This document shows, in pieces, positions 1 through 18,400 of a DNA stretch of 64,000 bases (its first letter is position 1; each line of letters begins with the position of its first letter). The stretch is from a virus: the IMG/VR virus record IMGVR_UViG_3300033143_003083, positions 13,173-77,172 of that record. The stretch is one strand, 5' to 3'. Below the pieces are notes generated by a model. The model made no database searches, was not told the origin of the DNA, and saw only the letters and a list, made by a program, of their open reading frames with translations. Both the position numbers and the translations under genes were made by a program.

Positions 1-63
1 TTCTATAAGAAGCATGGGTTCGTGTCTGAAGGTGGTGATGTTATGCGTAGAGAACCTAAATGA
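1..63 (+). CDS. 3' end of a probable GNAT-fold acetyltransferase (partial)
   Basis: Frame 1 reads FYKKHGFVSEGGDVMRREPK*, the FYxxxGF GNAT motif; stop overlaps next ATG. Confidence 0.55.
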   Translation, partial: FYKKHGFVSEGGDVMRREPK

Positions 64-425
64 AACTCAATCTATTATTTGAGAATGTTGAATACCAAGC
101 ATTCAGTAAGTACATCACAAAGAAGTACAATGTAAGAACATTCTTCATCAATCAATCAGGGAATGACATTGAACTCAACAGCATAATCATAGCAAAAGAA
201 AATCAGAAAGAAGGTATCGGGTCTGATGTGATGAAAGAACTCATTAAGTTTGCTGATAGTAAGGGTAAGAGAATCATATTGGGTGTTGGTGTAAAGGATA
301 GCATTCATGGTACTACGTCCAGATCGCGTCTGGTTAAGTTCTATAAGCGGTTCGGATTCAAAGAGAACAAAGGGCGTAAGAAAGATTTCAGTGTATCTGC
401 CGGTATGATACGCAATCCAAAGTAA
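60..425 (+). CDS. GNAT-family acetyltransferase with MKLxxLFE leader
   Basis: QKEGIGS acetyl-CoA motif A, LVKFYKRFGF motif B. Confidence 0.8.
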   Translation: MKLNLLFENVEYQAFSKYITKKYNVRTFFINQSGNDIELNSIIIAKENQKEGIGSDVMKELIKFADSKGKRIILGVGVKDSIHGTTSRSRLVKFYKRFGFKENKGRKKDFSVSAGMIRNPK

Positions 426-680
426 TTATAATTTATTCATCAGCATAAGACTTTCACCCAGTTCAGATATCTTTATATGATTACGTTCAGAGCATAGTTG
501 TTGGGTGATAACCTGTGTTGAATCACCTAACGTCATTCCAATATCATCAGCAGTAACATAAACGATATACCCTGACTCCAAATGACTATACCATAACAAA
601 ACATTAGTTTTATAAGAATTACCAAGGTCAAACGCTTTGTTCAGATCAACAGTACTCCAAAAATCTAAGAAGTCTTTCAT
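426..680 (-). CDS. Small paralog family B (winged-helix-like), ends MNKL
   Basis: LESGYI...KISELG motif; start at ATGA overlap with upstream stop. Confidence 0.65.
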   Translation of the reverse strand: MKDFLDFWSTVDLNKAFDLGNSYKTNVLLWYSHLESGYIVYVTADDIGMTLGDSTQVITQQLCSERNHIKISELGESLMLMNKL

Positions 681-913
681 AACATCCACCACTCATGCAA
701 GTGTTCATTCTCAACAATGTAATTCCATGCGTCTTCATACGTAGTATAACTTCTGCGGCCTGATGGTGGTATCTTATGTTCCCTTATGAATTCAACTAAA
801 ATAGCTGCCCCACCATGATAATTTAGTTTACTAAAAACATTAGGGAACAGGTGCTCATTAAGTTTGGGGTATTGCCTCTCCACTTTTTCATGAAAATCTA
901 TACTCTTATTCAC
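677..913 (-). CDS. Small paralog family A (WWML)
   Basis: YPKL..HLF...WNYI..NEHLHEWWML; GTGA overlap start. Confidence 0.75.
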   Translation of the reverse strand: MNKSIDFHEKVERQYPKLNEHLFPNVFSKLNYHGGAAILVEFIREHKIPPSGRRSYTTYEDAWNYIVENEHLHEWWML

Positions 914-1146
914 AACATCCACCAGATATGTTTGTCTTCGTTGTCACAGATGTATTTCCATATAATTTCATACGTTAAATTATCTTTGGTTGGACAATTG
1001 CATTGGTGATTCACAAAATCAAGTACTAACGACAAGTTTTCAAAGGTATCATCTAATACATAAGAGTACCCTGCAAAAATGTGGTCATGCAATTCAGGGT
1101 AATAATCATACACTAATGATTTAAAATGGTCTAAATCTTTAATCAA
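910..1146 (-). CDS. Small paralog family A (WWML)
   Basis: YPELHDHIF...IWKYI..NEDKHIWWML. Confidence 0.75.
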   Translation of the reverse strand: MIKDLDHFKSLVYDYYPELHDHIFAGYSYVLDDTFENLSLVLDFVNHQCNCPTKDNLTYEIIWKYICDNEDKHIWWML

Positions 1147-1319
1147 CTTACTTACCTGTTATTTTCTCATACTGGTCAACAACATCAAAGAATAAATCAT
1201 ATGCGGCATCACCGGACGTGTCAGCAGCTTCACGTGCTTCTTTCGAACTCCCCCATTGATCTACCCATTCCATAGTTTTATCAAACCATTCAATTTTTTC
1301 TTCGTCTGTCATATATCAC

Positions 1320-1550
1320 CTATAATTCATCAAATAATTGTATACTGAGTTCAGCTTCAACCCTGTCATGAATTTCTTGTGCAGTACCTGCAATCGTCTT
1401 AAAGATCATTGTATTTTTTGCATATGAGTACACAGTACCCCCAACCCCACGAGTAAATTCAATGATGTTATAATTGCTGCCACCCACACTGTCAGTAATA
1501 ATATACTTTTTGTGCTGGTCATCTATAATTATTGGTTTGCCCAGACTCAT
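1320..1550 (-). CDS. Small protein family E, ends FDEL
   Basis: Paralog of 1550-1810 (TDS.gG..Y.I.E...AQ..HD..E). Confidence 0.65.
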   Translation of the reverse strand: MSLGKPIIIDDQHKKYIITDSVGGSNYNIIEFTRGVGGTVYSYAKNTMIFKTIAGTAQEIHDRVEAELSIQLFDEL

Positions 1551-1810
1551 TATAATTTTCTCATTAGACGTTTAGCATAAGTTTTTTCTATTTCATCATG
1601 TAGGAATTGTGCTGAATCATTACATTGTCTCATATAATTACCTTTGAGATCATATGCAACCCAATAATTATAAGGTAATATTAAAGGTGTTATCTTAAAA
1701 TTACCTTTATACTCACGTTCGACAATTTCATAATCATGACCGGCAAAACTATCTGTTACCTTATGATAGATTTTGCCCTTACGATGTTTAATTCGTCTGC
1801 CTAACATCAT
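1550..1810 (-). CDS. Small protein family E, ends MRKL
   Basis: Paralog of 1320-1550; ATGA-coupled start. Confidence 0.65.
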   Translation of the reverse strand: MMLGRRIKHRKGKIYHKVTDSFAGHDYEIVEREYKGNFKITPLILPYNYWVAYDLKGNYMRQCNDSAQFLHDEIEKTYAKRLMRKL

Positions 1811-2037
1811 AACTCCAATGTGATAAAAACTGATGTGGGGGCAAATATTACCTTGCCACAATTTGACCATGTTGCTAATTCTCTTACGACTGATACCGGA
1901 CGGTCTTCAGCAACATTCTTCCTGAAATGATTACAGTATGATAACCATATGTCCCACACACAAAATGTAGCAGACATACTGGAATCACTGACTATACCAC
2001 ACATACCCAGACCATTAACTGAGATTGAATTTCTCAT
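1807..2037 (-). CDS. Hypothetical protein, ends TLEL
   Basis: ORF in coupled minus-strand array. Confidence 0.5.
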   Translation of the reverse strand: MRNSISVNGLGMCGIVSDSSMSATFCVWDIWLSYCNHFRKNVAEDRPVSVVRELATWSNCGKVIFAPTSVFITLEL

Positions 2038-2166
2038 TATCCTTCCTCTCAATTTCGTCTAAACGGTCAGCAATACACTTCATCAGTACCGATTTGGTCA
2101 CAGGGTTCTGAGTATAGTGGTAATCGCGGAATAAGTCACCTAATGTTGCTGGATTTGCGTCCTTAC

Positions 2167-2511
2167 TCATAACTCACCCCATTCTTCATAAGCATCATAA
2201 AAAGCATATGCAAGTTCTGTAAATTTGAATTCAACAAAATAAACGGTTCTTTTAGGTTTAAGTTTTCTCCCACCGACACACTCAAATCTACCCTTAGTAG
2301 TTCTTTCATAGACATGAACATCAGACAAACACGAACCTGTACTAATATGAATAATTTCATCTGTGTGATTCATTTTAACGTTGTTTTCAAAACCATTTGC
2401 ATTAGTTTTCGTCATATAGATTCTGAACTTATTAGGTTCAATGACTGTGACACTCTTAGATGCATCACGGTCATGCATGAATTCACATAATTTACCAAGA
2501 TAATTACTCAT
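2167..2511 (-). CDS. Hypothetical protein, ends WGEL
   Basis: ORF in coupled array. Confidence 0.6.
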   Translation of the reverse strand: MSNYLGKLCEFMHDRDASKSVTVIEPNKFRIYMTKTNANGFENNVKMNHTDEIIHISTGSCLSDVHVYERTTKGRFECVGGRKLKPKRTVYFVEFKFTELAYAFYDAYEEWGEL

Positions 2512-2732
2512 AACATCCACCATTCATGTAGATCTTCATTGTCATTAATATACTGCCAGATAGTTTCGGGTGTGGTAAGATGCATCATATTGTTTTTCTT
2601 CAAAAATATTCTGAGTGCTGTGAATTCTAATACATTATTATCAAATATATGATTATAAAGTTCAGGATAATAGCGGCGCATATTAATCATTATATCACCG
2701 ACACCAATAACATGTTTACCCTTATATCTCAT
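2508..2732 (-). CDS. Small paralog family A (WWML)
   Basis: YYPELYNHIF...IWQYI..NEDLHEWWML. Confidence 0.8.
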   Translation of the reverse strand: MRYKGKHVIGVGDIMINMRRYYPELYNHIFDNNVLEFTALRIFLKKNNMMHLTTPETIWQYINDNEDLHEWWML

Positions 2733-2971
2733 AACATCCACCATGCATGTAAGTCTTCGTTATCTCTAATATATTGCCATATCTCAACATACTCGTTACC
2801 TGAATGTAGTGAGATACCTGATTTTAATCTTGTCTTCTTCATAAAGATTGTAAGTGATGTATATGGGGTACGACCTTCACCATATACATATATATAAAGT
2901 TCTGGATAATAATGTTTCATATTATTCAGTAAAGAAGTCATGGTAAGAACGGAGCCATCATCAAATGTCAT
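2729..2971 (-). CDS. Small paralog family A (WWML)
   Basis: YYPELY...IWQYIRDNEDLHAWWML. Confidence 0.8.
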   Translation of the reverse strand: MTFDDGSVLTMTSLLNNMKHYYPELYIYVYGEGRTPYTSLTIFMKKTRLKSGISLHSGNEYVEIWQYIRDNEDLHAWWML

Positions 2972-3189
2972 AACATCCACCAATCGTGTAATTCTCTGTT
3001 GCACCTGATATGATCCCATATAGCTTCAACTGAGGTAAGATGTATTATATTGTTTTTCTTCAAAAAAATTCTGAGTGCAGTATGAGGCAGATCATCATTA
3101 TCGAATATATGAGTATAAAGTTCAGGATAAAATGATTTTATACTATCCATTAACCCTCTTAGATGTATCACATGTTCGCCATTACTCAT
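2968..3189 (-). CDS. Small paralog family A (WWML)
   Basis: FYPELYTHIF...IWDHI..NRELHDWWML; closely similar to 2508-2732. Confidence 0.8.
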   Translation of the reverse strand: MSNGEHVIHLRGLMDSIKSFYPELYTHIFDNDDLPHTALRIFLKKNNIIHLTSVEAIWDHIRCNRELHDWWML

Positions 3190-3419
3190 AACATCCACCA
3201 ATCATGCTTATCTTTATTCACAACAATGAAATCCCAGATTTCTTGGTAATCCCATACCGACACCTTACCATCACCATGACTACTGATAAAGATGATAAGC
3301 GAGTCGTAAGGGTCATTACGACCACCAAATATGTATTTGTAAAGTTCTGGGTAATAATATTTCATACTATGTTTCAGTTCATCCATAATACGGACTGAAG
3401 ATGATGGTATTCTACTCAT
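3186..3419 (-). CDS. Small paralog family A (WWML)
   Basis: YYPELYKYIF...IWDFI..NKDKHDWWML. Confidence 0.8.
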   Translation of the reverse strand: MSRIPSSSVRIMDELKHSMKYYYPELYKYIFGGRNDPYDSLIIFISSHGDGKVSVWDYQEIWDFIVVNKDKHDWWML

Positions 3420-3649
3420 AACATCCACCAATCATGCATATCTTCCTTTGCAACAATGTACGCCCATATTTCATTATAAGACAACCTATTAATATCATAT
3501 GATATCTTATTCATAAAGATATCAAGTGCTTCATATGAGGCAGCATACCCAAAGAACACATGAGCATGAAGGTCAGGATAATAACGTGCCATATTATGCT
3601 TCAGGGCATTCACTGAGAAAATAGGCGCAGGATGCTTCGTATCATTCAT
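3416..3649 (-). CDS. Small paralog family A (WWML)
   Basis: YYPDLHAHVF...IWAYI..KEDMHDWWML. Confidence 0.8.
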   Translation of the reverse strand: MNDTKHPAPIFSVNALKHNMARYYPDLHAHVFFGYAASYEALDIFMNKISYDINRLSYNEIWAYIVAKEDMHDWWML

Positions 3650-4021
3650 TTAATCGACTGCTTCCAGTACTTCTATGTTCCAGAAGCGACACCCATGTAA
3701 GTCCCTGTCAAGCATCACAGCACCCTCACCATAATCTTTTATGTATGACACTATATGTGCAGTACGATGGTTGTCACGACCTTCAGGACAGCTATGGTTT
3801 AATTTAGACGGTGGTTGATTTAACTTAACCTTTGTTCCCACTGGGGTACGTTTAGCTCTTTCTGCCAGTTCCGCAATTTCAATTGCATAATTCAAAGCCC
3901 ATCGTAACTTTTTAGCTTCCTTAATGGAAACTCTAGTCTGAGAATTACCCCTGCTGAGAAGAATAGGTTTGTCAGGTCTGCTTTCTCGTGGTTTATGCTT
4001 TGCTGTGAATTCTTCTGGCAT
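3650..4021 (-). CDS. Hypothetical protein
   Basis: ORF with AGGAG RBS, downstream of tRNA-Cys. Confidence 0.65.
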   Translation of the reverse strand: MPEEFTAKHKPRESRPDKPILLSRGNSQTRVSIKEAKKLRWALNYAIEIAELAERAKRTPVGTKVKLNQPPSKLNHSCPEGRDNHRTAHIVSYIKDYGEGAVMLDRDLHGCRFWNIEVLEAVD

Positions 4022-4037
4022 CAGATTACTCCTAAGT

Positions 4038-4112
4038 TGGAAGGTGTGGGGGGATTCGAACCCCCATGCAACGGATTTGCAATCCGCGACCTAGCCGTTC
4101 GGTCACACACCT
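4038..4112 (-). tRNA. tRNA-Cys(GCA)
   Basis: Acceptor AGGTGTG/CACACCT, U73, encoded CCA, anticodon loop TT-GCA-AA, T-loop TTCGAAT. Confidence 0.93.
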
Positions 4113-4314
4113 ATAATTTTATAATAATTAGTAACATAATAAAAAATGACATTCCGAATATTAATGATCCAATCATTGCTAATGTTGTCATACTATTATC
4201 ATTTTTGATTAGTTTGTATACTACCGCAAGTCCAATTCCATAGACAGTACCACTGAATAATCCAGCTAATACCATTGATTGAAATATTATTAATAAAATC
4301 ATACTATTCTCCAA
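4111..4314 (-). CDS. Small membrane protein
   Basis: Two hydrophobic segments. Confidence 0.6.
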   Translation of the reverse strand: MENSMILLIIFQSMVLAGLFSGTVYGIGLAVVYKLIKNDNSMTTLAMIGSLIFGMSFFIMLLIIIKL

Positions 4315-4317
4315 TAA

Positions 4318-4668
4318 TTATAATAATTTAGCAATACTGTCAGAGAACACTTTCATTGCTTTCAATACAACATCACGTTCTTCTTCGTCTGGCATTGCTG
4401 CTGTTGGGTCTTCCATGAATTCACGCACACCCTGTGCAATTGTAGTCAGTGGTGAATCGAATAATGATTTTGTCTCAGCAGCACTTATTGCTTCATTGAA
4501 GCATTTAACGCGGGTAGCTGCCACACTTAATTTATGATGCACTTCAGGTAAATTATCAGTCCAATTACCCGTTACGTGTGATGCTGCATCTTGTACTTTA
4601 ATAACAAGAGCATCACGTTCAGCAGCAGCCTCATTACGCATTTTTGTAAGCAAAGTTAAAGTTGTCAT
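4318..4668 (-). CDS. Hypothetical early protein
   Basis: First ORF after sigma70 promoter 4695-4723; GGGAG RBS. Confidence 0.7.
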   Translation of the reverse strand: MTTLTLLTKMRNEAAAERDALVIKVQDAASHVTGNWTDNLPEVHHKLSVAATRVKCFNEAISAAETKSLFDSPLTTIAQGVREFMEDPTAAMPDEEERDVVLKAMKVFSDSIAKLL

Positions 4669-4694
4669 ATTTGTTCTCCCAGTTGATGAAGGGA

Positions 4695-4723
4695 ATTATA
4701 GATTGAAAACTTCCCTGTGTCAA
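4695..4723 (-). promoter_or_regulatory. Sigma70-consensus early promoter
   Basis: TTGACA-CAGGGAAGTTTTCAATC(17)-TATAAT. Confidence 0.9.
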
Positions 4724-4746
4724 ATCTTATTTCAATTGATATTAAC

Positions 4747-4752
4747 TAAATA
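4747..4752 (+). promoter_or_regulatory. T4-like late promoter core TAAATA
   Basis: CTAAATAC 5 nt before ATG 4758; same motif before other late-type genes. Confidence 0.6.
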
Positions 4753-4757
4753 CCACT

Positions 4758-5468
4758 ATGAATTTACTACAATTATTCGAAAATGTCCAAAATGTCAATC
4801 TGGATCAGCTATACCGGAAATTTAACCAGAAATACTTCAATGGTCAGTTACCAGTGGTCAAAACAAAATGGTCTAATAAGCGTAGGTCAATGGGGGCAGT
4901 AGTTGCCAACAGAGTCAAAGCAACTGGGGTAATATCAATCAAACATCTGGAAATTTCCAAGCATCTTGATATTGACGAAGAAAAATTGAGTGCATTAATG
5001 TTACATGAAATGATTCATGTGTATGTGTTATTCGTATTACAACTGAGTGAACGTAGTGGGGGTCACGGTACAGAGTTCCATAAGAAACGGGGAGAACTTA
5101 ATCGTAAGACTCCATTTGTGATTCCTGCATCTGAAGATTATAATGAGTTTGAGGTATCACCCCATATAAAAATTAAACCTACTGTGATCATTCTCAGAAC
5201 AGGTAGTGGTGGTACATGGGTACATGCCATATCAGAAAAAGGATTCCAGAAAGATTTCGAAAAGATTATTGGACGATTTGTTCAAGAACATGAATATGAA
5301 GTTTTTGTGTCTGCTGCAAGTAATATTACTAAGATACCTGTTGCACGTGTGCTCACAAAAAAAGGTATGCCGTATTATAGAATGAATGATAAAGAAATAC
5401 AGTTAATCAGGGACGGTATGACCAAGATGATTGTTAAAATAGACAAGAACGGAAATATATCATCATGA
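4758..5468 (+). CDS. SprT-like zinc metalloprotease with MNLLQLFE leader
   Basis: LYRKFNQKYFNGQLP, HEMIH and GHGTEF motifs. Confidence 0.85.
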   Translation: MNLLQLFENVQNVNLDQLYRKFNQKYFNGQLPVVKTKWSNKRRSMGAVVANRVKATGVISIKHLEISKHLDIDEEKLSALMLHEMIHVYVLFVLQLSERSGGHGTEFHKKRGELNRKTPFVIPASEDYNEFEVSPHIKIKPTVIILRTGSGGTWVHAISEKGFQKDFEKIIGRFVQEHEYEVFVSAASNITKIPVARVLTKKGMPYYRMNDKEIQLIRDGMTKMIVKIDKNGNISS

Positions 5469-5860
5469 AACTTAGTCATATAAAACAACCGGATCTGTTC
5501 GGTATTCAGACAAAACCTATGTCAATAGTAGGGGTATATGACCGGATGATCCTGAGAGTCATCGAACCAACGAATAAGAGCGCATTTAAGCAAGATTGCA
5601 CATGTCATAAGCTGAGTATCAACTATATCGTTAAACACGCCAAACCTTCTGACAGACTCGTTATGGTGGGGGTAGGTAATACTGTTACTCATAGCTTCGT
5701 GGTAAATATAAGTGGGAAGATAATTGCTGATACTAATATAAGTAATGATCCGACTTATGATGGAAAGACTTATACAGTGGGTAAGGATAAGTTTAAGCAC
5801 ATGTGGAATAAAACAGCACGTGATATCGCCAGAGATATTAAAGAGATATTAGTTAAATGA
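5465..5860 (+). CDS. Possible papain/transglutaminase-like fold protein
   Basis: CHKLS...HSFVV...IAD resembles a Cys-His-Asp triad. Confidence 0.4.
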   Translation: MKLSHIKQPDLFGIQTKPMSIVGVYDRMILRVIEPTNKSAFKQDCTCHKLSINYIVKHAKPSDRLVMVGVGNTVTHSFVVNISGKIIADTNISNDPTYDGKTYTVGKDKFKHMWNKTARDIARDIKEILVK

Positions 5861-6276
5861 AGTTAGAACAATTATTAGAAAGTGCAAGTAAAAATATGAT
5901 TAAGGCTGCGGCAAACGTCACTGAAAAATTATTAAAGATTGGTGGTGAGCGTGTTGTCAGGCCAGAAGAAGATGAAGACATCGTATTAATGTCCCAGAAA
6001 GGAAAGTTGTGGAAGCATAAGGCAACTAAATTGGATGGTGTACCATATAACGACTGCCACCGTGTTACCGCAAATGTATGTCAGGTAAATAAAAGATTTA
6101 GCGCAATAACGGGTTTTGCATTATCAAAGGATGGGTTATGGAGGCCACATTCTTTTATGTTTGATACTGTTGATAAATCAATACTAGAACCTACTCCAAT
6201 CATACGTGTTAAATATTGGGGGGTCTTAATGAGTGGTAAAGATGCTGAACGATTTATAAAGAGTAACGCCAGATGA
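5857..6276 (+). CDS. Possible papain/transglutaminase-like fold protein, MKLEQLLE leader
   Basis: NDCH...TGFALS.DGLWRPHSF...EPTP...YWG. Confidence 0.5.
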   Translation: MKLEQLLESASKNMIKAAANVTEKLLKIGGERVVRPEEDEDIVLMSQKGKLWKHKATKLDGVPYNDCHRVTANVCQVNKRFSAITGFALSKDGLWRPHSFMFDTVDKSILEPTPIIRVKYWGVLMSGKDAERFIKSNAR

Positions 6277-6593
6277 AGTTAGAACAATTATTTGAATCCC
6301 GCCAGAAACAATACGGCAGACCATTACCGGAAACTGGATATCAATATAAGAAGGTAGAAATTTTCAGAGCACTTGATGCTAATGAAGATTACTTCCTGCC
6401 AGAAGATTATGTGACCCGTCTGAAGAAGTTTGCAGTGGGTCATGCTGATCATAACGTTGTTGTACTGGAAACCCCTCAGAAAGTTATCAGGGCAATTGTG
6501 AATGCGTCTGATGTATATGAAGCAACGAATGCAGGTGAATACTTTTATGATGGTAAGAAAGTAAAGGGACGAGTAATTTATGAAACTGATTAA
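6273..6593 (+). CDS. Possible ADP-ribosyltransferase-fold protein, MKLEQLFE leader
   Basis: IFRA...DYVT....A..HA...VIRA.V...GEYFY fits the R-S/T-E ART pattern. Confidence 0.5.
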   Translation: MKLEQLFESRQKQYGRPLPETGYQYKKVEIFRALDANEDYFLPEDYVTRLKKFAVGHADHNVVVLETPQKVIRAIVNASDVYEATNAGEYFYDGKKVKGRVIYETD

Positions 6594-7191
6594 CCTATTC
6601 GAAAGTGCAAGTAAAAATCGTGACATGATTGTAATTGATGTACAACCATTCTATCACAACCATCACAAACATATCGTCCCAAGATTAATCGAACATGTGA
6701 ATCAGATGACAGGTGATGTCTTATGGTTTCATAATGGTTGTAATGTGGGGATTGAAGATACGGTACATGAACAAAAAATGTACCTGCTTGAAAATGGAAT
6801 GGACGAAGATAGATTAGACGAAATAACATTTGTAGAAAAAGATTATGCATTTTTCAGAGGTTGGATGGATAATGGTATTGATGAAGATATTATTATTGCT
6901 GCTGGTAAATACATGTACAAGAATCGTATTAATGACAGTCGTGATTTGGAAGTAGAAGATTTTGTGAAATTCTTACCCAGACCCGAACGTGATACATTCA
7001 CAGACGAAGATGAATTATATAAAAATGAAGATGCATTACATTGGCCTGACATTGATATTAATAAATTGAAAAGATACAACAACGCTTACTTAGTAGGTGG
7101 TGGCAGGGATGAATGTCTTGAAGAAATGAGATTACTTCTGGAAATGGTTGGGATGAAGTACAAATTATTAAATGAGTTTATATACGGATGA
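6580..7191 (+). CDS. Cysteine hydrolase (isochorismatase/nicotinamidase-like), MKLINLFE leader
   Basis: IVIDVQ, conserved Lys (VEKDY), LVGGGRDECL. Confidence 0.7.
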   Translation: MKLINLFESASKNRDMIVIDVQPFYHNHHKHIVPRLIEHVNQMTGDVLWFHNGCNVGIEDTVHEQKMYLLENGMDEDRLDEITFVEKDYAFFRGWMDNGIDEDIIIAAGKYMYKNRINDSRDLEVEDFVKFLPRPERDTFTDEDELYKNEDALHWPDIDINKLKRYNNAYLVGGGRDECLEEMRLLLEMVGMKYKLLNEFIYG

Positions 7192-8792
7192 AGTTAATAC
7201 AATTATTAGAGCAACTTGAATGGTTATTTGAAAATCGTAAGATTGAACTGATTGCCAAGAAGCAAGGCCAGAAGATTATGAAAGCGCATGGACGTGATCG
7301 TACTCATGATCAGCGACTTATTGATTCTATCTTTGGTATGACTCCCATTGTACATCGTGGTGGGGCGAAAGGTGGTGATGAATTAGTACAAGACAGTGCC
7401 AAGAAAATTATTGAATTCTTCCAAACTAAAATTCATAAGAAGTATGTCCAATGGATTGCCAACCGTTACATGAACCGAGAATTCCAATTGGAAGATTGGA
7501 AAACTATTAAGGACAACCTGAAAGATTTCGACCGTATTAAAAATAAATTATCTGTTAAAGATATCAATCAATACGACTCTATGGTTGCCTTGGATAACGC
7601 CATTGATTCCCTGAAAGATAAAGATGTCAGATCCAACAAACAAAAAGATAAAGAAGAACGTGCTCAATTATTCAAAGATAAAGAAGCTATCCTTTTCTAT
7701 AAAGATTCTGATATTAAGATTGAGATACCCAAGACTGAAGAAGCTGCATGTGTTCTGGGTAAGGGTACTCGCTGGTGTACATCAGCACGTAATCATAATC
7801 AGTTCGCCAATTATAACAGAGAGGGTGATCTATATATCATCACCACCAAAGACGGCAAGAAGTTCCAATTCCATTTACATACTAAGCAGTTCATGGATGA
7901 AGCAGACCACGAAATTAAGATGACTGAAGTACTTGAAGAATATCCTTCAATCCTTAAAGCAATACCAAAACTTGTTGACAGTTTGTCTATGTTCGACAGG
8001 GCAAATATAAATGATATGAGTCAGAATGAAGTTGAAGGTATGATTAAGGAATGGATTGATGACGGATTACACCAGATTGATATGCATGATGATACCACTG
8101 TAGTCATTGAATCATACCAAGACTTAGATAAATTCTTTCGCCAATATGATTTCATGGAATTGTCCAGTATGCTTTATTACATAGATGACCCAAGTACGTT
8201 AGAAGAAGAAATGGATACTGACAAAGCTAGAATGGACATTTCGAAATATCTTAATCAATCTATTATTGATTTGATACATGACCGATTATTAGATCAACCT
8301 CAACATGAATTATTTGATATTAACACCAATGACAAGGTATTCAATGCATTAAACAATTATACAACACTATCAAGACAGATCCTGAATGAAATTGTTGAAA
8401 ATATGACTGAGGAATCAGCAGAAGCAATGGAAAAATATCTTAAGGATGGTATGGAAGGTGAAGGATTCGATCATGGTGTCATGGGATTCTTATTTGATAC
8501 TGAACGTTCCCACTCAAGCGGATATTTACTTGTAACTGACGAGGCCAGAAATTTTTACGACAGTACTTATTCGATGTCAATGGAGTTATACGAACTTGCA
8601 ACTAACTTAACTGAAACTGGATGGGATGATATATCAGATGATGAATTTGAACATGAAATGAGAAGATTCTTCGGTGAAGAATTTGACCATAACCCAGATT
8701 TAAAATCCCCAAGTGATTTCTATCATACTCAGAACATGGATAATCTTGAAAATAGAATAGAAAGGGTTATGAAAGAGTGGAAAGGGTTATGA
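7188..8792 (+). CDS. Large phage protein with GTRWCT domain and acidic C-terminus; MKLIQLLE leader
   Basis: 534 aa ORF; KTEEAACVLGKGTRWCTS...LYII...KFQFH...FMDE. Confidence 0.7.
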   Translation: MKLIQLLEQLEWLFENRKIELIAKKQGQKIMKAHGRDRTHDQRLIDSIFGMTPIVHRGGAKGGDELVQDSAKKIIEFFQTKIHKKYVQWIANRYMNREFQLEDWKTIKDNLKDFDRIKNKLSVKDINQYDSMVALDNAIDSLKDKDVRSNKQKDKEERAQLFKDKEAILFYKDSDIKIEIPKTEEAACVLGKGTRWCTSARNHNQFANYNREGDLYIITTKDGKKFQFHLHTKQFMDEADHEIKMTEVLEEYPSILKAIPKLVDSLSMFDRANINDMSQNEVEGMIKEWIDDGLHQIDMHDDTTVVIESYQDLDKFFRQYDFMELSSMLYYIDDPSTLEEEMDTDKARMDISKYLNQSIIDLIHDRLLDQPQHELFDINTNDKVFNALNNYTTLSRQILNEIVENMTEESAEAMEKYLKDGMEGEGFDHGVMGFLFDTERSHSSGYLLVTDEARNFYDSTYSMSMELYELATNLTETGWDDISDDEFEHEMRRFFGEEFDHNPDLKSPSDFYHTQNMDNLENRIERVMKEWKGL

Positions 8793-9265
8793 AATTATCC
8801 CAATTCTTACAAGAAGCTATAAGAAATCGTACCCTAATCAAAGGACAGCCCCTCTCAGGCGATTACTCCCATTACATACGTAGTATTACCGAGTTAAAAG
8901 ACCTTCTTAAAGAGCATTACGGCAATTCTAAGATGACTTTAGACAATATTATCAAACTTTATGCTGAACATGACATGAAACTCACTGATAATTTGCTTGA
9001 ATTTGAGTTTACCGTTAAGGAACTTGATAAGTACAAGGAATGGAAGCGTACCAGAAACGATTCTAACCTTTCCACTGACGAATGGGATGAAATGAAAGCG
9101 GATATTAAGAAAAACGGTATACGGGATTACGGTGTGCTTGGTATGTATCAGAAAAGGAACGGTGATGTCCTTACTTATATCGGTGAAGGTAATCACAGGT
9201 TGGCAATCGCAAAAGAACTTGGCATTAAGAAGATGAAAATGCGTCTTTTTTACGGGAAAGCCTAA
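8789..9265 (+). CDS. ParB/Srx N-terminal domain protein, MKLSQFLQE leader
   Basis: DIKKNGI...IGEGNHRLAIAKELG. Confidence 0.7.
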   Translation: MKLSQFLQEAIRNRTLIKGQPLSGDYSHYIRSITELKDLLKEHYGNSKMTLDNIIKLYAEHDMKLTDNLLEFEFTVKELDKYKEWKRTRNDSNLSTDEWDEMKADIKKNGIRDYGVLGMYQKRNGDVLTYIGEGNHRLAIAKELGIKKMKMRLFYGKA

Positions 9266-9616
9266 ATGAAACTTGATGAACTGTTTGCATGTCATGAAGA
9301 AGTCTTACTGGAAGGTAAGATTGAACGAATAATTGAAAAACATCAGGTGGCAATCCTTAAAGCGTTCAGTAAAGAGTCACCGGATGTCGTTGGCAATGTA
9401 AATCATATAATGAATGAATTTAAAGAGACACATCCAAAATATATCCAATGGATCACCAATCGTTACATCAAAGGTGAGTTCATAATGGAAAATTTACCTG
9501 AACTTAAGATGAAATTAGAAGAATTTGATAAAATTAAAGACAAACTTCAGTCTAATGAGAAGGATATCAACCGTCACAAAACATTAGAGTCGTTTTATAA
9601 GGTTATCACAGGGTAA
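9266..9616 (+). CDS. Short paralog of the N-terminal domain of 7188-8792; MKLDELF leader
   Basis: KYIQWITNRY.KGEF vs KYVQWIANRY..REF; FD.IK.KL...KDIN shared. Confidence 0.7.
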   Translation: MKLDELFACHEEVLLEGKIERIIEKHQVAILKAFSKESPDVVGNVNHIMNEFKETHPKYIQWITNRYIKGEFIMENLPELKMKLEEFDKIKDKLQSNEKDINRHKTLESFYKVITG

Positions 9617-9857
9617 TCAATACCGTCTTATGGTTATCTGGTAATTTATCATCAATAAAGGGTAAGTATTCACCACTCAATCTATATTTCCCTCCCCTCC
9701 ACAGAATTTTACCAGTTTCATTATTCCTTTTGGTTAATATTACGTCTGTGCCAAACACAATTTCACCGTCAAACTCAACTGCAACATATCGTACACCAGT
9801 AAGATCAACATCCATTAAGTAAAACCATATCATTTCTATGAATTCATCGTCAGTCAT
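9606..9857 (-). CDS. Small paralog family C (AVDxDG)
   Basis: YVAVEFDGEIV...W...LITL. Confidence 0.75.
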   Translation of the reverse strand: MTDDEFIEMIWFYLMDVDLTGVRYVAVEFDGEIVFGTDVILTKRNNETGKILWRGGKYRLSGEYLPFIDDKLPDNHKTVLITL

Positions 9858-10135
9858 AATTTTATCATCACATTCTTATAATTTGGGGGGGTGTCATCTG
9901 GTGATCTGGTGAGATACGTACCAGTAAGAACCGATTCTGCATCATTTGAACGCCAAATGAAATGATGAGTGTTCTTATTATAACTGTTTGTCGTATTATG
10001 AATACCTCTTACTAATCTGTCACCATGTGATACTACAATCTCACCATCAAAATCTACTGCAAGATACTTTGCACCAGTTAAGTTGTAGTCAATTAGTTTG
10101 AATAATATTAATTGTTCGAAATCATCATCAGTCAT
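9854..10135 (-). CDS. Small paralog family C
   Basis: YLAVDFDGEIV...PPNYKNVMIKL. Confidence 0.75.
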   Translation of the reverse strand: MTDDDFEQLILFKLIDYNLTGAKYLAVDFDGEIVVSHGDRLVRGIHNTTNSYNKNTHHFIWRSNDAESVLTGTYLTRSPDDTPPNYKNVMIKL

Positions 10136-10407
10136 AATTTTATTAGCGTATCTTTCCAGTTAAGTGGTCTGGTCATTGTTGTTATCAATTGAAAGTTTGC
10201 TGCTGATGTCAACGCATCAGCTACTTCTTCTGCTGGCGTCCATTGACTTCTGAATGAGTTATTTTTTAGTTTTTGATTAATAGGTTCTAATCCGTACACA
10301 TACAAATTACCATCACTATCAACCGCAGCATAATTAAACCTGTCGATGTTATAATCACATAACAACAGATGAAATTTCATTAACTCTTTGTATTCAATGG
10401 TTGTCAT
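10132..10407 (-). CDS. Small paralog family C
   Basis: YKELMKFHLL...YAAVDSDG...PLNWKDTLIKL. Confidence 0.8.
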   Translation of the reverse strand: MTTIEYKELMKFHLLLCDYNIDRFNYAAVDSDGNLYVYGLEPINQKLKNNSFRSQWTPAEEVADALTSAANFQLITTMTRPLNWKDTLIKL

Positions 10408-10667
10408 AATTTAAAAAGCATTTCAGCGTAATTATCCATAACCGGATTCAAATATACATCAGTACAAAAAGGAATCATATGATCCGGTGGTGGTTTCCCA
10501 CCCCAAACCTTCTGACCGTTAGGGGGAATTGTGTTATCTTCAATTGTCATCAGATAACTACTTGTCACAATCTCACCATCATAATCAATACCAATGTATT
10601 TCACATTAGTTAAATCATAATCTATTAACTTATACATGATAAGTTCAAACCAATCATCCTTAGTCAT
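10404..10667 (-). CDS. Small paralog family C
   Basis: ELIMYKL...YIGIDYDGEIV...LFKL. Confidence 0.75.
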   Translation of the reverse strand: MTKDDWFELIMYKLIDYDLTNVKYIGIDYDGEIVTSSYLMTIEDNTIPPNGQKVWGGKPPPDHMIPFCTDVYLNPVMDNYAEMLFKL

Positions 10668-10668
10668 T

Positions 10669-10926
10669 CTATAATTTCCTGAACTTCAGCATTTCTATAC
10701 CTGCCTCGGTTATATAAATTTCAGCGTATTTCTGTGTGACTACATTAGGTACTAATTCCTTGCCACCAAACACATGATCAAGAATTATCCATCCTAATTC
10801 ATCCCATTCTTCCATGTACTCAGTATAAGTAAGAACAATCTTAGTGGTATGTGCAGGAGCATGGTAATAATGAATGACATGACGTGTCCTCAGATAAAAT
10901 TCGTCTAATGAAGTAATCATTTTCAT
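10669..10926 (-). CDS. Small paralog family B (wHTH-like)
   Basis: ELGWI...ITEAG.EMLKFRKL. Confidence 0.75.
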   Translation of the reverse strand: MKMITSLDEFYLRTRHVIHYYHAPAHTTKIVLTYTEYMEEWDELGWIILDHVFGGKELVPNVVTQKYAEIYITEAGIEMLKFRKL

Positions 10927-11123
10927 AATTCCCTGAATTCCAATACTGTCATACCCAGTTCAGTAATAGAATAAGTTTTTTCTTGGTTGTCAATAAATTC
11001 GATATAACCTAAACTCATATATGCCTTATACAATGGAGTATCAAAGTATACAAATTTTACGTAAGATGAATTGAGTGAATGCATCCTACCAAACCATTCA
11101 TCTATTGGTGTTGCCCTACTCAT
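10923..11123 (-). CDS. Small paralog family B
   Basis: LGYI...YSITELG..VLEFREL. Confidence 0.75.
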   Translation of the reverse strand: MSRATPIDEWFGRMHSLNSSYVKFVYFDTPLYKAYMSLGYIEFIDNQEKTYSITELGMTVLEFREL

Positions 11124-11347
11124 AATTCATCGAACGCCAATACGTCCAATCCAGTTTCTGTTATCTGTATATGATAAGCATCCCTACCATATATCGTTTT
11201 AAATGGGTTCGAAGCAACAATCCATCCTAATTCAACCCATGTTGGTATATCAACCGCAGCACAATTAAACTTACATTCAATTCTGCTTTTGGCTATTCTG
11301 TTTTCTCTGAATAAGAAACAGAATGTTTGTAAGTATTTTGAATTCAT
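11120..11347 (-). CDS. Small paralog family B
   Basis: ELGWI...ITETG..VLAFDEL. Confidence 0.75.
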   Translation of the reverse strand: MNSKYLQTFCFLFRENRIAKSRIECKFNCAAVDIPTWVELGWIVASNPFKTIYGRDAYHIQITETGLDVLAFDEL

Positions 11348-11616
11348 AATTTTATTAATGTCTTAGTCCAATCTTCTGGGTCAAGCATCCATATTATAAA
11401 TTTATAATTGGAAGATGACCATGCTTCTTTAGTTTCTTCTAATGGTGTCCATCCAGATGGGTGTGTCAGGGGGTCATATTGGTAAATACGTGGTTCAAAC
11501 TCATAGGTATGCAAAGCACCACCTTCATCAACCGCAGCATAATTCATACCAATTAAATTTTCATCACATAACAACAGATGGAATTTCATTAACTCTTTGT
11601 ATTCATCAAGATTCAT
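11344..11616 (-). CDS. Small paralog family C
   Basis: YKELMKFHLL...YAAVDEGG...WTKTLIKL. Confidence 0.8.
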   Translation of the reverse strand: MNLDEYKELMKFHLLLCDENLIGMNYAAVDEGGALHTYEFEPRIYQYDPLTHPSGWTPLEETKEAWSSSNYKFIIWMLDPEDWTKTLIKL

Positions 11617-11876
11617 AATTCATCAAATGCCAGTAAACTTTCACCATGTTCAGTTATACGAATATACAACTTACTCTCAACCATAGAATTAGTAATACGT
11701 CTTCTTAGGTTAAGGTAATCCCTGCCAATACAAGTACCGATATCATCCACTGTTATAAATTCAATAAGACCTTTCTCAAGGTATTGTTCATATCGTTTAG
11801 AAATTTCTCTGCGCCATATACCATTGGCATCTTCAAGGTCAAACATAAGAATGAAATATTTGTTTACATCATCCAT
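11613..11876 (-). CDS. Small paralog family B
   Basis: EKGLI...ITEHG.SLLAFDEL; TAATG-coupled start. Confidence 0.7.
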   Translation of the reverse strand: MDDVNKYFILMFDLEDANGIWRREISKRYEQYLEKGLIEFITVDDIGTCIGRDYLNLRRRITNSMVESKLYIRITEHGESLLAFDEL

Positions 11877-12148
11877 TATAATTTCACCAACGATTCTTTC
11901 CAATAAGGTTGTGGTATAAGGCATGTTACTAATTCGTACCCACAACTATGAATTTCATCATGGGCAAAATTATTATACCACATTCTAATTTTATTAATTT
12001 CGATATCAACATGTTTTATTGTAGGTTTATCTATATAAATATACAGTTCTCCATTCTTGTCAACAGCAGCATAATTAAATAACGTTAAGTCCATGCTTGT
12101 CATCAGTAAATGGAATTTCATTAAGGTTATGTATTCTTCTCGTGTCAT
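11876..12148 (-). CDS. Small paralog family C
   Basis: LMKFHLL...YAAVDKNG...WKESLVKL. Confidence 0.75.
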   Translation of the reverse strand: MTREEYITLMKFHLLMTSMDLTLFNYAAVDKNGELYIYIDKPTIKHVDIEINKIRMWYNNFAHDEIHSCGYELVTCLIPQPYWKESLVKL

Positions 12149-12175
12149 AATAATACCCAAAGTGTTCATAGTCCA

Positions 12176-12181
12176 TAAATA
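12176..12181 (+). promoter_or_regulatory. T4-like late promoter core TAAATA
   Basis: CATAAATAG upstream of GAGG RBS of 12213. Confidence 0.6.
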
Positions 12182-12212
12182 GTATTATAAACACTCAGAG
12201 GAAAATATCAAG

Positions 12213-13079: not shown

Positions 13080-13231
13080 AGATTGTCAAAATCATTGAAG
13101 TCATTTATTATAGATTGAATTTCTTCAGGTGTTTTTCCTTCTGCTTCTAATTGGTCGAACATATGATATCGTTCAGACGAAGTACATATCATAATGTGTT
13201 CTTCTTGATAGTACCTACATAAATATTTCAT
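13076..13231 (-). CDS. 51-aa family D-like protein (not in ORF track), ends FDNL
   Basis: Hand translation: MKYLCRYY...EGKTPEEIQSIINDFNDFDNL*; ATGA coupling. Confidence 0.65.
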   Translation of the reverse strand: MKYLCRYYQEEHIMICTSSERYHMFDQLEAEGKTPEEIQSIINDFNDFDNL

Positions 13232-13452
13232 AACTTACTGAATGCCTTTAATGTCTTCCCTTCTTCAGTCAACTTCATTACTGCTGATGGGGGATGATCT
13301 TTTACTTCTACTACTGTTACCCAACCACGCTCAATCCAATTAAGTGTTATTGGGGATTGAGCAACATGAATGTCAGTCTCGTCATTATAATGGTTTACTA
13401 TTCTGATGAATGTTCTCATTGCATCAACATCATCTTCATAAAATTTCTTCAT
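13228..13452 (-). CDS. Small paralog family B
   Basis: ERGWV...LTEEG.TLKAFSKL. Confidence 0.75.
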   Translation of the reverse strand: MKKFYEDDVDAMRTFIRIVNHYNDETDIHVAQSPITLNWIERGWVTVVEVKDHPPSAVMKLTEEGKTLKAFSKL

Positions 13453-16666: not shown

Positions 16667-16679
16667 TCTAAATACTCCT

Positions 16680-17951: not shown

Positions 17952-17958
17952 TAGTTAG

Positions 17959-18363: not shown

Positions 18364-18400
18364 TAGAATGTCTCCTTTTAAACGTTCTAACTAAGTTAAA

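What the first reader, a model, noticed from the sequence alone, without database searches (positions are those of the whole stretch)
60..9616. Late enzyme genes with a shared MKLxxL[FL]E leader: probable capsid-packaged effector set
Seen: leaders MKLNLLFEN (60), MNLLQLFEN (4758), MKLEQLLES (5857), MKLEQLFES (6273), MKLINLFES (6580), MKLIQLLEQ..LFEN (7188), MKLSQFLQEA (8789) and MKLDELF..LLEG (9266) on otherwise unrelated proteins, with TAAATA before 4758. Known: T4 internal proteins carry a ~10-aa capsid-targeting leader that gp21 cleaves after Glu. GNAT, zincin, papain-like, ART and ParB-N domains typify injected polyvalent proteins. Inference: a polyvalent-type payload split into separately addressed genes and injected with the DNA to modify host proteins or counter defence.
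Basis: partly seen in the sequence, partly recalled or inferred. Interest (0 to 1): 0.8.

Follow-up and report, generated by a model that had tools for sequence, protein, structure and literature searches.

The report
Shared capsid-address leader on phage enzymes
In a fragment of an uncultured giant T4-related phage, thirteen otherwise unrelated genes start with the same eight-residue tag (MKLxxLFE), which copies the start of the capsid-protein precursor of related giant phages. The tag most likely loads these enzymes into the phage head for delivery with the DNA, a larger and differently spelled version of the T4 internal-protein system.

Summary
All eight leaders lie at the stated coordinates. 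The set is larger than reported: 13 plus-strand genes in two blocks, five of them upstream of the window.

- **Specificity.** 12 of 13 carry the leader, against 0 of 130 other ORFs (p about 1e-16). Synonymous codon variation shows that selection acts on the peptide.
- **Resemblance to capsid precursors.** The tag ends in the L-x-E Glu site used by T4-type gp21 prohead proteases. It copies the N-terminus of the major capsid precursor of PA5oct-like giant phages (MxxKLFES in 117 of 120; also ALLEG and VVFEN).
- **Other phages.** Salicola phage SCTP-2, which has a gp21 protease, shows the same tag on about a dozen genes and on its capsid protein.
- **Dialects.** Homologues of two cargo proteins in other phages carry other dialects, some nearly the proven T4 tag (MKTFKQF...).
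- **Virion evidence.** One cargo homologue is a mass-spectrometry-detected PA5oct virion protein.
- **Cargo domains.** The GNAT domain also occurs inside DarB-like giant virion proteins, and the ART-like family occurs as a domain of proteins up to 2,300 aa. GNAT (two genes) and SprT zincin are confirmed. ParB-N, ART-like and isochorismatase-like are leads. Papain-like is not supported.
- **Not shown.** Packaging, cleavage, injection and late timing. The protease and capsid genes are not on this contig.

Verdict: probable T4-type capsid-targeting system, a new variant of a known kind. The scan had noted this same stretch before, from another window.

The parts
60..425 (+). GNAT acetyltransferase (121 aa) with leader MKLNLLFE|N. 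It is the last gene of leader block 1, which starts upstream of the window at contig 8940.
   Evidence: Pfam Acetyltransf_7 and Acetyltransf_1 score above their cut-offs. phrog_10691 positions 2684-2797 of 3925, E 8e-30, aligned from residue 9. tblastn hits lie inside DarB-like, PLxRFG and methylase giant proteins.
4695..4723 (-). Perfect sigma-70 promoter (TTGACA-17-TATAAT) driving the minus-strand early block (426-4668) that separates the two leader blocks. It is not part of the payload set.
   Evidence: 12 of 12 consensus match.
4746..4753 (+). CTAAATAC, a near-match to the T4-type late -10 element, 5 nt before the first gene of block 2. The same octamer lies 28 nt before block 1 (contig 8906).
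   Evidence: The canonical (C/T)ATAAATAG lies upstream of structural genes.
4758..5468 (+). SprT-like zincin (HEMIH), 236 aa, leader MNLLQLFE|N.
   Evidence: PF10263 E 1e-12, residues 16-117. Orthologues at 50-87% identity keep the leader: MNLLQLFEG, MKLVNLFEA, MNLEQLFEE.
5465..5860 (+). 131-aa protein of unknown function. It starts MKL but has no L-F-E, and is the one exception in the blocks.
   Evidence: No Pfam or PHROG hit.
5857..6276 (+). 139-aa basic protein of unknown function, leader MKLEQLLE|S.
6273..6593 (+). 106-aa protein, leader MKLEQLFE|S. It matches the C-terminal part of a ParB-family PHROG.
   Evidence: phrog_2579 positions 395-469 of 472, E 4e-8.
6580..7191 (+). 203-aa protein, leader MKLINLFE|S. 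Possibly an isochorismatase-like hydrolase fold (a lead only).
   Evidence: Atlas features and structure. A homologue at 35% identity in another giant-phage contig aligns from residue 15 and carries a different leader, MDFKKWLLAE.
7188..8792 (+). 534-aa protein with a double leader, MKLIQLLEQLEWLFE|N, and a conserved GTRWCT (distantly PcfJ-like) domain. It is a paralogue of the 505-aa gene upstream of the window.
   Evidence: 45% identity to PA5oct EST35_0205, annotated 'structural protein, ESI-MS/MS', which starts MKLFEVFTLYE. AF2 pLDDT 86, no PDB fold match, weak BFVD PcfJ-like matches.
8789..9265 (+). 158-aa basic protein, leader MKLSQFLQE|A, ParB-N-like (GEGNHRLAIAKELG).
   Evidence: Atlas ParB_N clusters by features and by structure. 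Weak PHROG ParB hit. Pfam is negative.
9266..9616 (+). 116-aa protein, long leader MKLDELFACHEEVLLE|G. It is an N-terminal-domain-only paralogue of the 534- and 505-aa proteins, and the last gene of block 2.

Best explanation
The MKLxxL[FL]E peptide, and its longer form ending in L[LT]EG, is most likely a capsid-targeting propeptide of the T4 type.

Proposed mechanism (all steps inferred):
1. The 13 proteins are made late.
2. The tag imitates the N-terminus of the phage's own major-capsid precursor. It docks each protein on the scaffolding core inside the assembling prohead.
3. The gp21-family prohead protease then cuts after the Glu.
4. This frees mature proteins that stay in the head with the DNA and enter the host with it. 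They comprise two GNATs, a SprT-type zincin, an ART-like protein, ParB-like proteins, an isochorismatase-like protein, PcfJ-like proteins and several of unknown function.
5. In the host they most likely modify host proteins or nucleic acids, or counter defence.

Shown: the shared tag, its restriction to these genes, its peptide-level conservation, its identity with capsid-precursor N-termini in relatives, and the kinship of the cargo with virion and polyvalent proteins.

Inferred: docking, cleavage, packaging, ejection and the targets.
For: 1. **Specificity.** 12 of 13 block genes against 0 of 130 other ORFs. The neighbouring tail and neck genes lack the tag.
2. **Peptide-level selection.** Leader codons vary synonymously.
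3. **T4 grammar.**
   - The T4 record gives ipII/ipIII MKTYQEFIAE, alt MELITELFDE and gp24 MAKINELLRE. gp23 and gp22 contain LLEG, IFEN and IFES.
   - The review PMC9026906 describes propeptides of 10-19 residues. Residues 4 and 7 are needed for targeting and residues 8 and 10 for processing.
4. **Capsid-precursor mimicry.**
   - 117 of 120 PA5oct-clade capsid proteins start MxxKLFESNW..ALLEG..VVFEN.
   - The PA5oct capsid protein reads MSNRLFES..ALTEGLKGQRK. Our 596-aa protein reads ..TLTEGLKFGRKE.
   - The SCTP-2 capsid protein starts MANLFEN.
5. **SCTP-2.** It has a Peptidase_S77 protease. L[FLY]E[SN] lies at residues 3-14 in 13 of its ORFs, against 0-2 in internal control windows.
6. **Same cargo, other dialects.**
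   - The 203-aa homologue carries MDFKKWLLAE in a contig with about 9 genes of the MKTWKTFLEE type.
   - Of 102 stand-alone homologues of the 196-aa protein, 76 have [LIF]xE at residues 4-14, against 5-37 in control windows. Some start MKTFKQF.
   - Glu8 is nearly invariant in that family.
7. **The tag is outside the folds.** GNAT homology starts at residue 9, SprT at 16 and the 203-aa protein at 15. AF2 residues 1-5 have pLDDT below 50.
8. **Virion links.**
   - PA5oct EST35_0205 was detected by MS in virions.
   - The GNAT lies within DarB-like and PLxRFG proteins.
   - The 196-aa domain also sits inside proteins of 300-2300 aa.
9. **Promoters.** No sigma-70 promoter precedes the blocks, whereas the interposed early block has a perfect one.
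Against: - No protease, scaffold or capsid gene is on this contig, which is about 24% of the genome. The phage's own cleavage grammar is therefore unknown.
- There are no proteomic or N-terminal data for this phage, or for any MKLxxLFE protein.
- No paper that I read or queried for processing terms reports processing of the PA5oct or SCTP-2 capsid N-terminus. RaK2's capsid protein only migrates slightly low on a gel (PMC3622015).
- The promoter-like element before the blocks (CTAAATAC) differs from the (C/T)ATAAATAG found before structural genes.
- PA5oct itself has no expanded leader family.
- Several mature cargo proteins are acidic (pI about 4.9), unlike the basic T4 internal proteins.
- Two cargo proteins hold internal LLES or LLEN sites.
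- One block gene lacks the motif.
Confidence: 0.65

Rival explanations
1. The tag is a prohead-protease or assembly signal, but the proteins are structural or assembly accessories. They would be inner-head, core or decoration components, or factors degraded during maturation. They would not be effectors ejected into the host.
For: - The same motif is on the capsid precursor and on core and scaffold proteins, which are not effectors.
- The PA5oct homologue is annotated only as 'structural protein'.
- The large acidic 596-, 534- and 505-aa proteins (pI 4.9) look more like core components than DNA-bound internal proteins.
Against: - Most cargo are small enzymes with intact catalytic motifs: GNAT, HEMIH zincin, R..ExE. 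Homologues are domains of DarB-like and polyvalent proteins, which the cited literature holds or predicts to be delivered.
- T4 Alt sets the precedent for a tagged enzyme that is injected.
Confidence: 0.15
2. The tag is an address or control element unrelated to the capsid. Possibilities are a docking peptide for a phage chaperone or protease hub, a degron that times the life of these proteins, or a signal for another site such as the tail lumen or the membrane.
For: - Nothing here shows physical location.
- The capsid protein could share the tag because it uses the same chaperone (T4 gp23 needs GroEL-gp31; from general knowledge).
- The block promoters are not canonical late ones.
Against: - The motif matches the gp21 cleavage grammar and the proven T4 tag dialects.
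- Tail and neck proteins on the contig lack it.
- It is acidic and too short for secretion.
- A homologue is in PA5oct virions.
Confidence: 0.12
3. The shared N-terminus is a relic of gene duplication or of recombination at a common 5' cassette boundary or translation-initiation context. The peptide itself would have no function.
For: - Most genes overlap by ATGA, which forces an A at the start of codon 2.
- Three of the genes (534, 505 and 116 aa) are true paralogues.
Against: - Codons vary synonymously.
- The other cargo proteins are unrelated folds.
- The leader is kept in orthologues at 50-87% identity and in distant SCTP-2.
- Minus-strand genes with ATGA overlaps start MT, MS or MN and show no such motif.
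Confidence: 0.04

Closest known systems
T4 capsid-targeting sequence on internal proteins IPI-III and on Alt (Mullaney and Black 1996; reviews PMC9026906, PMC3012670)
   Same: - A short N-terminal tag begins M-K/E, has hydrophobic residues at spaced positions and ends in (L/I)-x-Glu.
- The tag is the only feature shared by otherwise unrelated proteins.
- Cargo includes an enzyme (Alt, an ART) and anti-restriction proteins.
- The T4 literature describes the tagged internal proteins as highly diverse between related phages.
   Different: - The consensus differs: MKLxxLFE[SN], 8 residues, or 15-16 with a second LLEG or LFEN site, against MKTYQEFIAE.
- There are 13 genes in two operon-like blocks, not 3-4 scattered genes.
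- The cargo is mostly recognisable enzyme domains, and several are acidic.
- The lineage is a giant phage far from T4 (about 30% identity in gp15).
- None of the functional steps has been tested.
N-terminal propeptides of T4 gp24 and gp23, and the capsid precursors of PA5oct-like giant phages
   Same: - The motifs are the same: LFES/LFEN, LLEG, VFEN.
- T4 gp24 starts MAKINELLRE|S.
- PA5oct-clade capsid proteins start MxxKLFES (117 of 120).
   Different: - Here the motif sits on non-capsid enzymes.
- Cleavage of the giant-phage capsid N-terminus at these sites has not been mapped.
Ejection and inner-body proteins of phiKZ, 201phi2-1 and SPN3US, cut by a gp21-related protease (PMC5694885, PMC9026906)
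   Same: - Many head-internal proteins are processed after Glu at a three-residue motif.
- Propeptides can hold several sites.
- Paralogues share identical N-termini.
   Different: - Their motif is S/A/G-x-E.
- Their propeptides are mostly longer than 100 residues.
- The lineage is different (nucleus-forming phages).
Polyvalent proteins and P1 DarB (Iyer et al. 2017, PMC5512222; PMC9024508)
   Same: - The domain repertoire overlaps: GNAT, zincin, ART, ParB-like.
- The GNAT here is homologous to a segment of DarB-like and PLxRFG giant proteins.
- The 196-aa domain also occurs inside proteins of 300-2300 aa.
- DarB has an N-terminal packaging signal.
   Different: - Here each gene carries one domain, each with its own tag, so by definition these are not polyvalent proteins.
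- The direction of evolution (split or accretion) is unknown. Iyer et al. favour accretion from solo versions.

Membership tests
T4-type CTS-tagged head-internal proteins | A short N-terminal peptide (about 10-19 aa) shared by otherwise unrelated proteins of one phage | tested here: met
   12 of 13 genes against 0 of 130 others. The cargo includes GNAT, SprT and unrelated unknowns.
T4-type CTS-tagged head-internal proteins | The tag ends in the gp21 cleavage grammar, hydrophobic-x-Glu | tested here: met
   LFE, LLE or LQE at residues 6-9, or L[LT]E at 14-16, in 12 of 13. T4 sites were read from the T4 record.
T4-type CTS-tagged head-internal proteins | The phage encodes a gp21-family (Peptidase_S77) prohead protease | tested here: inconclusive
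   Not on this contig, which is about 24% of the genome. Present in PA5oct and SCTP-2. The contig has T4-type gp15 and tail-tube genes.
T4-type CTS-tagged head-internal proteins | The proteins are present in the mature head with the tag removed | not testable with these tools
   Only indirect evidence: PA5oct homologue EST35_0205 is MS-detected in virions.
T4-type CTS-tagged head-internal proteins | The tag is sufficient to package a foreign protein | not testable with these tools
   Needs a leader-reporter fusion in a culturable relative.
T4-type CTS-tagged head-internal proteins | Late expression | tested here: inconclusive
   CTAAATAC lies before both blocks. The canonical (C/T)ATAAATAG lies before structural genes. 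No sigma-70 promoter precedes the blocks.
Polyvalent proteins (Iyer et al. 2017) | Two or more effector domains in one polypeptide | tested here: not met
   Each gene carries one recognisable domain.
Polyvalent proteins (Iyer et al. 2017) | Domains homologous to those in polyvalent or DarB-like proteins | tested here: met
   The GNAT matches phrog_10691 (profile of 3925 positions) and lies inside DarB-like and PLxRFG proteins. The 196-aa domain lies inside proteins of 300-2300 aa.
GNAT acetyltransferase | Pfam match above the curated cut-off | tested here: met
   Window 60-425: PF13508 at 29.1 bits (cut-off 27) and PF00583 at 25.8 (cut-off 20.7). The second GNAT, at contig 12831, scores below the cut-off.
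SprT-like zincin | Pfam match plus the HExxH motif | tested here: met
   PF10263 at 48.3 bits (cut-off 25.6). HEMIH is present.
ParB N-terminal domain | Profile match or the ParB-N fold | tested here: inconclusive
   Pfam is negative. PHROG ParB E 0.04. Atlas ParB_N clusters score 0.92 by features and TM 0.44-0.60 by structure.
ADP-ribosyltransferase | ART fold with an R/H - S/Y - E triad | tested here: inconclusive
   196-aa protein (upstream of the window): R92, W116 and E161xE163 are invariant. AF2 pLDDT 92. Top PDB hits are IcmQ, PARP12-15 and Certhrax, but at E 0.02-3.
Papain-like peptidase | Papain fold with a Cys-His dyad | tested here: not met
   The GTRWCT domain model (pLDDT 86) has no PDB match at E <= 0.001. 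The top rows are unrelated folds. BFVD gives distant PcfJ-like matches.

The most novel reading that the evidence does not exclude
A clade of mostly uncultured giant T4-related phages uses a readable address code: a copy of the first residues of its own capsid-precursor propeptide (KLFES, then LLEG). Any protein carrying it is loaded into the head. Lineage-specific dialects of the code (MKLxxLFES, MKVKHILFEN, MKTWKTFLEE, the T4 type MKTFKQF) are swapped onto a shared pool of enzyme modules that in other phages are fused into polyvalent giants. If so, the whole injected protein set of an uncultured phage could be predicted from sequence alone.
Probability: 0.45. Interest if true: 0.7.

Novelty: new variant of a known kind. 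Interest (0 to 1): 0.6.

Why it matters
Proteins injected with phage DNA act before any phage gene is expressed, so they decide the first round of the contest with host defences. Outside T4, P1, N4 and the phiKZ group they are hard to recognise.

If this tag is a capsid address, three things follow.
- It gives a sequence-only way to list the injected enzymes of uncultured giant phages.
- It shows that the domains fused in DarB-like polyvalent proteins can also be delivered as separately tagged single-domain genes.
- It suggests how such tags arise, by copying the capsid precursor's own propeptide.

The tag could also serve as a packaging handle for cargo in culturable relatives such as SCTP-2.

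Tried and rejected
**Searches that found nothing**
- Near-identity DNA search against GenBank phages: no match.
- A metagenome-contig scan with the 534-aa family: nothing.
- Sequencing-run search: none was listed, and no RNA holder was listed.
- PDB sequence searches for the 158-aa and 203-aa proteins found nothing. The 534-aa family profile gave only two chance-level rows, E 0.21 and 0.29.
- tblastn of the 106-aa protein: no match. The 596-aa protein gave one weak SCTP-2 hit.

The 133,743-base ENA contig that holds orthologues P0003 and P0342 could therefore not be read for its capsid and protease genes.
- The pdb_via and pdb_via_wide libraries were not available.

**Readings tested and dropped**
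- Papain-like reading of the GTRWCT domain: rejected, no fold match.
- Nucleotide-level repeat or translation-signal origin of the leader: rejected, because the codons vary.
- CTAAATAC as a genome-wide promoter motif: its total count on the contig is at chance (about 5 expected, 5 seen). Only its position before both blocks is notable.

**Tests that were uninformative**
- Depletion of internal cleavage motifs in the cargo: not seen, and the numbers are too small.
- A PA5oct-wide test of leader against MS detection: dropped. PA5oct has no expanded leader family (7 N-terminal hits against 1-5 in control windows).
- Tenacibaculum phage PTm1 SprT homologue: it lies among early-type genes, and its annotated start is uncertain.
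- Pfam on SCTP-2 leader proteins: almost nothing.

Full report
**What the DNA is.** The window is bases 13173-77172 of a 77,172-base linear IMG/VR contig that CheckV rates as about 24% complete. That implies a genome near 300 kb. The contig has about 36% G+C. It encodes a T4-type gp15 tail-sheath stabiliser (PF16724, E 9e-32), tail-tube-like proteins and a virion protein on the minus strand at its left end. The rest looks like a long run of minus-strand early and replication-type genes, judging from ORF sizes and N-termini. Only the tail and virion genes and the payload genes were run against family libraries. The best tblastn relatives of gp15 are giant phages at about 30% identity: PA5oct and its kin, RsoM2USA, XacN1, PBECO4 and Phosso. 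No near-identical phage record exists.

**The observation.** Thirteen plus-strand genes form two translationally coupled blocks, at contig 8940-13597 and 17930-22788. In window coordinates, block 1 begins upstream of the window and ends at 425, and block 2 is 4758-9616.
- Twelve of the thirteen start M-K/N-L-x-x-(L/V/F)-(F/L). Nine of these have Glu at position 8, and one (window 8789) has it at position 9.
- Four have a longer leader with a second site: ..ILLEG, ..VLLEG, ..TLTEG and ..EWLFEN.
- The 131-aa gene at 5465 is the exception.
- None of 130 other ORFs on the contig has the motif. This includes the eight tail and neck genes next door (Fisher p 4e-13 strict, 1e-16 loose).
- The tetrapeptide L[FL]E[SNG] occurs only 0.11 times per 1000 residues in the contig's other proteins.
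- Leu, Phe and Glu codons differ freely between leaders. The conserved object is therefore the peptide, not a DNA repeat or a ribosome signal. ATGA overlaps explain an A at the start of codon 2 at most.

**The gap between the blocks.** The 4.3 kb between the blocks (window 426-4757) is a minus-strand early block. It holds a tRNA-Cys and a perfect TTGACA-17-TATAAT promoter at 4723-4695.

**The tag is an add-on.**
- GNAT homology to PHROG 10691 starts at residue 9.
- SprT homology starts at residue 16.
- The 203-aa protein aligns to its homologue from residue 15.
- In the AlphaFold model of the 196-aa protein, residues 1-5 have pLDDT below 50 while the rest averages above 90.

**Match to T4.** Read from the T4 record itself:
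- ipII and ipIII start MKTYQEFIAE.
- ipI starts MKTFKEFTSTTTPVSTITE.
- alt starts MELITELFDE.
- gp24 starts MAKINELLRE.
- gp23 and gp22 contain PLLEG, KIFEN and SIFES.

The review PMC9026906 states three relevant points. These propeptides are 10-19 residues long. Residues 4 and 7 of the IPIII tag carry targeting, and residues 8 and 10 carry processing. The tag may be a general way for T4-like phages to load varied proteins. PMC3012670 says the tag is the only conserved part of the very diverse T-even internal proteins. The leaders here have the same grammar and even the same tetrapeptides.

**The new link: capsid-precursor mimicry.**
- In PA5oct the 'precursor of major head subunit' starts MSNRLFESNWAATKSALTEGLKGQRKSTMDAVMEN. 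The small core protein next to the portal starts MKINDIITEG.
- In Salicola phage SCTP-2 the gp23 homologue starts MANLFEN..LSEG..VVLEN. The acidic core protein starts MSKVTLEQVFEQ, and the scaffold holds VFEN, LFEA, LLEG and VLEN.
- Among the 120 best database homologues of the PA5oct capsid protein, 117 start MxxKLFES (or a close variant), followed by ALLEG and VVFEN.
- Both PA5oct and SCTP-2 encode a Peptidase_S77 (gp21) protease.
- The short leader here equals the first capsid motif, and the long leaders add the second.
- The 596-aa protein's ..TLTEGLKFGRKE resembles PA5oct's ..ALTEGLKGQRKS beyond the motif.
- RaK2's capsid protein runs slightly below its predicted mass. Its authors read this as N-terminal processing (PMC3622015).
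- I found no mapped cleavage site for this clade.

**The same tag, and other dialects, elsewhere.**
- SCTP-2 has MRLNNLFES, MKIKQLFES, MKIKQLLES, MRLAKLYES, (V)KITELFES, MKVKHILFEN, MKIRHLYEN and six paralogues with MKVKHITQYLFES. That is 13 ORFs with L[FLY]E[SN] at residues 3-14, against 0-2 in internal windows.
- Orthologues of the SprT and 534-aa genes at 50-87% identity keep the leader.
- The homologue of the 203-aa protein lies in IMG/VR contig 3300006750_000005, another giant-phage fragment. It carries MDFKKWLLAE instead. That contig has about nine genes with MKTWKTFLEE, MKTWKTFVEG, MKFKLWLEN, MQKFSTFLEN, MIKNFKEWLAEE and similar.
- The 196-aa protein belongs to a family of 563 detectable members. 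Of 102 stand-alone members, 76 have [LIF]xE at residues 4-14, against 5-37 in control windows. Dialects include MKLEQLFEA, MKHLKHIFEN, MKYIKLFEN, MIKNFNQFLNES and the T4-like MKTFKQFLINE and MKTFKQYILQE. Glu8 is nearly invariant across 60 aligned members although the other leader positions vary.
- The same cargo with lineage-specific tags that all end in hydrophobic-x-Glu is what a capsid address matched to each phage's own core and protease would look like.

**Cargo and virion links.**
- Confirmed: GNAT (window 60-425) and SprT-like zincin (4758-5468).
- The second GNAT (contig 12831) is a below-threshold match.
- The GNAT matches positions 2684-2797 of a PHROG profile of 3925 positions. It lies inside proteins annotated DarB-like antirestriction, PLxRFG and N6-methylase in Serratia, Pseudomonas, Klebsiella and Vibrio phages.
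- The 534-aa protein is 45% identical over its central domain to PA5oct EST35_0205. That protein was found in virions by ESI-MS/MS and starts MKLFEVFTLYE.
- Its GTRWCT domain models well (pLDDT 86) but has no PDB fold match. It is distantly like PcfJ-like phage proteins. The papain-like call is therefore not supported.
- Leads only:
  - ParB-N for the 158-aa protein.
  - The C-terminal part of a ParB-family PHROG for the 106-aa protein.
  - An isochorismatase-like fold for the 203-aa protein.
  - An ART-like fold for the 196-aa protein: invariant R92 and E161xE163, with best PDB rows IcmQ, PARP12-15 and Certhrax at E 0.02-3.
- Thirty-two of 150 listed relatives of the 196-aa protein are domains of proteins of 300-2300 aa.
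- Iyer et al. (PMC5512222) describe GNAT, ART, zincin and DdrB-like ParB domains in polyvalent proteins, and note solo versions next to late genes.

**Timing.**
- (C/T)ATAAATAG, the T4-type late element, lies upstream of three structural genes and one plus-strand gene.
- The two leader blocks are each preceded by CTAAATAC, 28 and 5 nt from the start codon. This is a near-match whose total count on the contig is at chance.
- The blocks have no good sigma-70 promoter.
- Late expression is plausible but unproven.

**Weighing.**
- The capsid-address reading explains four things: the restriction of the tag to these genes, its grammar, its identity with capsid-precursor N-termini, its dialects, and the virion and polyvalent kinship of the cargo. 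I put it at about 0.65.
- Ejection and anti-host action are a further inference by analogy with Alt, the internal proteins and DarB.
- The main rival keeps the head location but makes the proteins assembly or core components (0.15).
- A non-capsid address or degron gets 0.12.
- A functionless relic is nearly excluded (0.04).
- Evidence against the best reading:
  - There are no head genes on the contig.
  - There are no proteomics for any MKLxxLFE protein.
  - The promoter is non-canonical.
  - Several cargo proteins are acidic.
  - PA5oct has only one such gene apart from its head proteins.

**Novelty.** The mechanism class is known from T4. Four things are new.
- The consensus is different.
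- The set is larger and enzymatic, in a giant-phage lineage.
- The tag matches the capsid propeptide.
- A shared pool of modules appears either singly tagged or fused into polyvalent giants.

I rate it a new variant of a known kind. Earlier notes of this scan on the same stretch (e1-6103447) proposed the same reading from sequence alone. The evidence above is independent of that note.

Noticed in passing
window 677-3649 (-): An array of small paralogous genes ends in ..WWML. The terminal codons TGGTGGATGTTATGA hold an SD-like GGTGGA and the ATGA start of the next gene. The 'MVDVM' N-termini in the ORF list are GTG artefacts of this overlap.
   Followed up: partly
window 4038-4112 (-) and 48788-48864 (-): tRNA-Cys(GCA) and tRNA-Met(CAT) genes. 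The tRNA-Cys sits in the early block between the two leader blocks.
   Followed up: no
window 4695-4723 (-): A perfect sigma-70 consensus promoter (TTGACA-17-TATAAT) faces away from the SprT gene.
   Followed up: partly
window 16668-17123 (+): A 147-aa plus-strand ORF (P0070) is preceded by CTAAATACTCCTATG, very like the CTAAATACCACTATG before the SprT gene. It has no leader.
   Followed up: no
window 48870-49166 (-): A 98-aa ORF starts MSFTDILES. It is the only leader-like N-terminus outside the two blocks.
   Followed up: no
L001 2227-5700 (-) and 6897-7394 (-): A 1157-aa protein has a C-terminal domain (residues 1009-1150) that matches the same tail-tube PHROG (4542) as the free-standing 165-aa tube protein nearby.
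   Followed up: partly
L001 1702, 2218, 6851 (-); window 12213 (+): (C/T)ATAAATAG, a T4-type late promoter element, lies 6-40 nt upstream of these genes.
   Followed up: partly
L056-L059 (IMGVR_UViG_3300006750_000005): A second giant-phage fragment (CheckV 14%) has about nine genes with T4-like N-termini: MKTWKTFLEE, MKTWKTFVEG, MKFKLWLEN, MQKFSTFLEN, MIKNFKEWLAEE, MDFKKWLLAE. They are scattered, not clustered.
   Followed up: partly
L028-L051 (Salicola phage SCTP-2, MF360958): Six paralogues of a DUF4116-related family at 29-42 kb all start MKVKHITQYLFES. Further leader genes lie at 209.7, 243.4, 251.8 and 376-378 kb.
   Followed up: partly
L002 (IMGVR_UViG_3300004369_000488): An 11-kb T4-like contig has two GTRWCT-family genes, a ParB-like gene, an HExxH gene and a 65-aa gene just upstream of the DNA polymerase. 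Their N-termini are MRARHFIVE, MKAREIIQE, MLVLDLFE and MKIQDILQE.
   Followed up: partly
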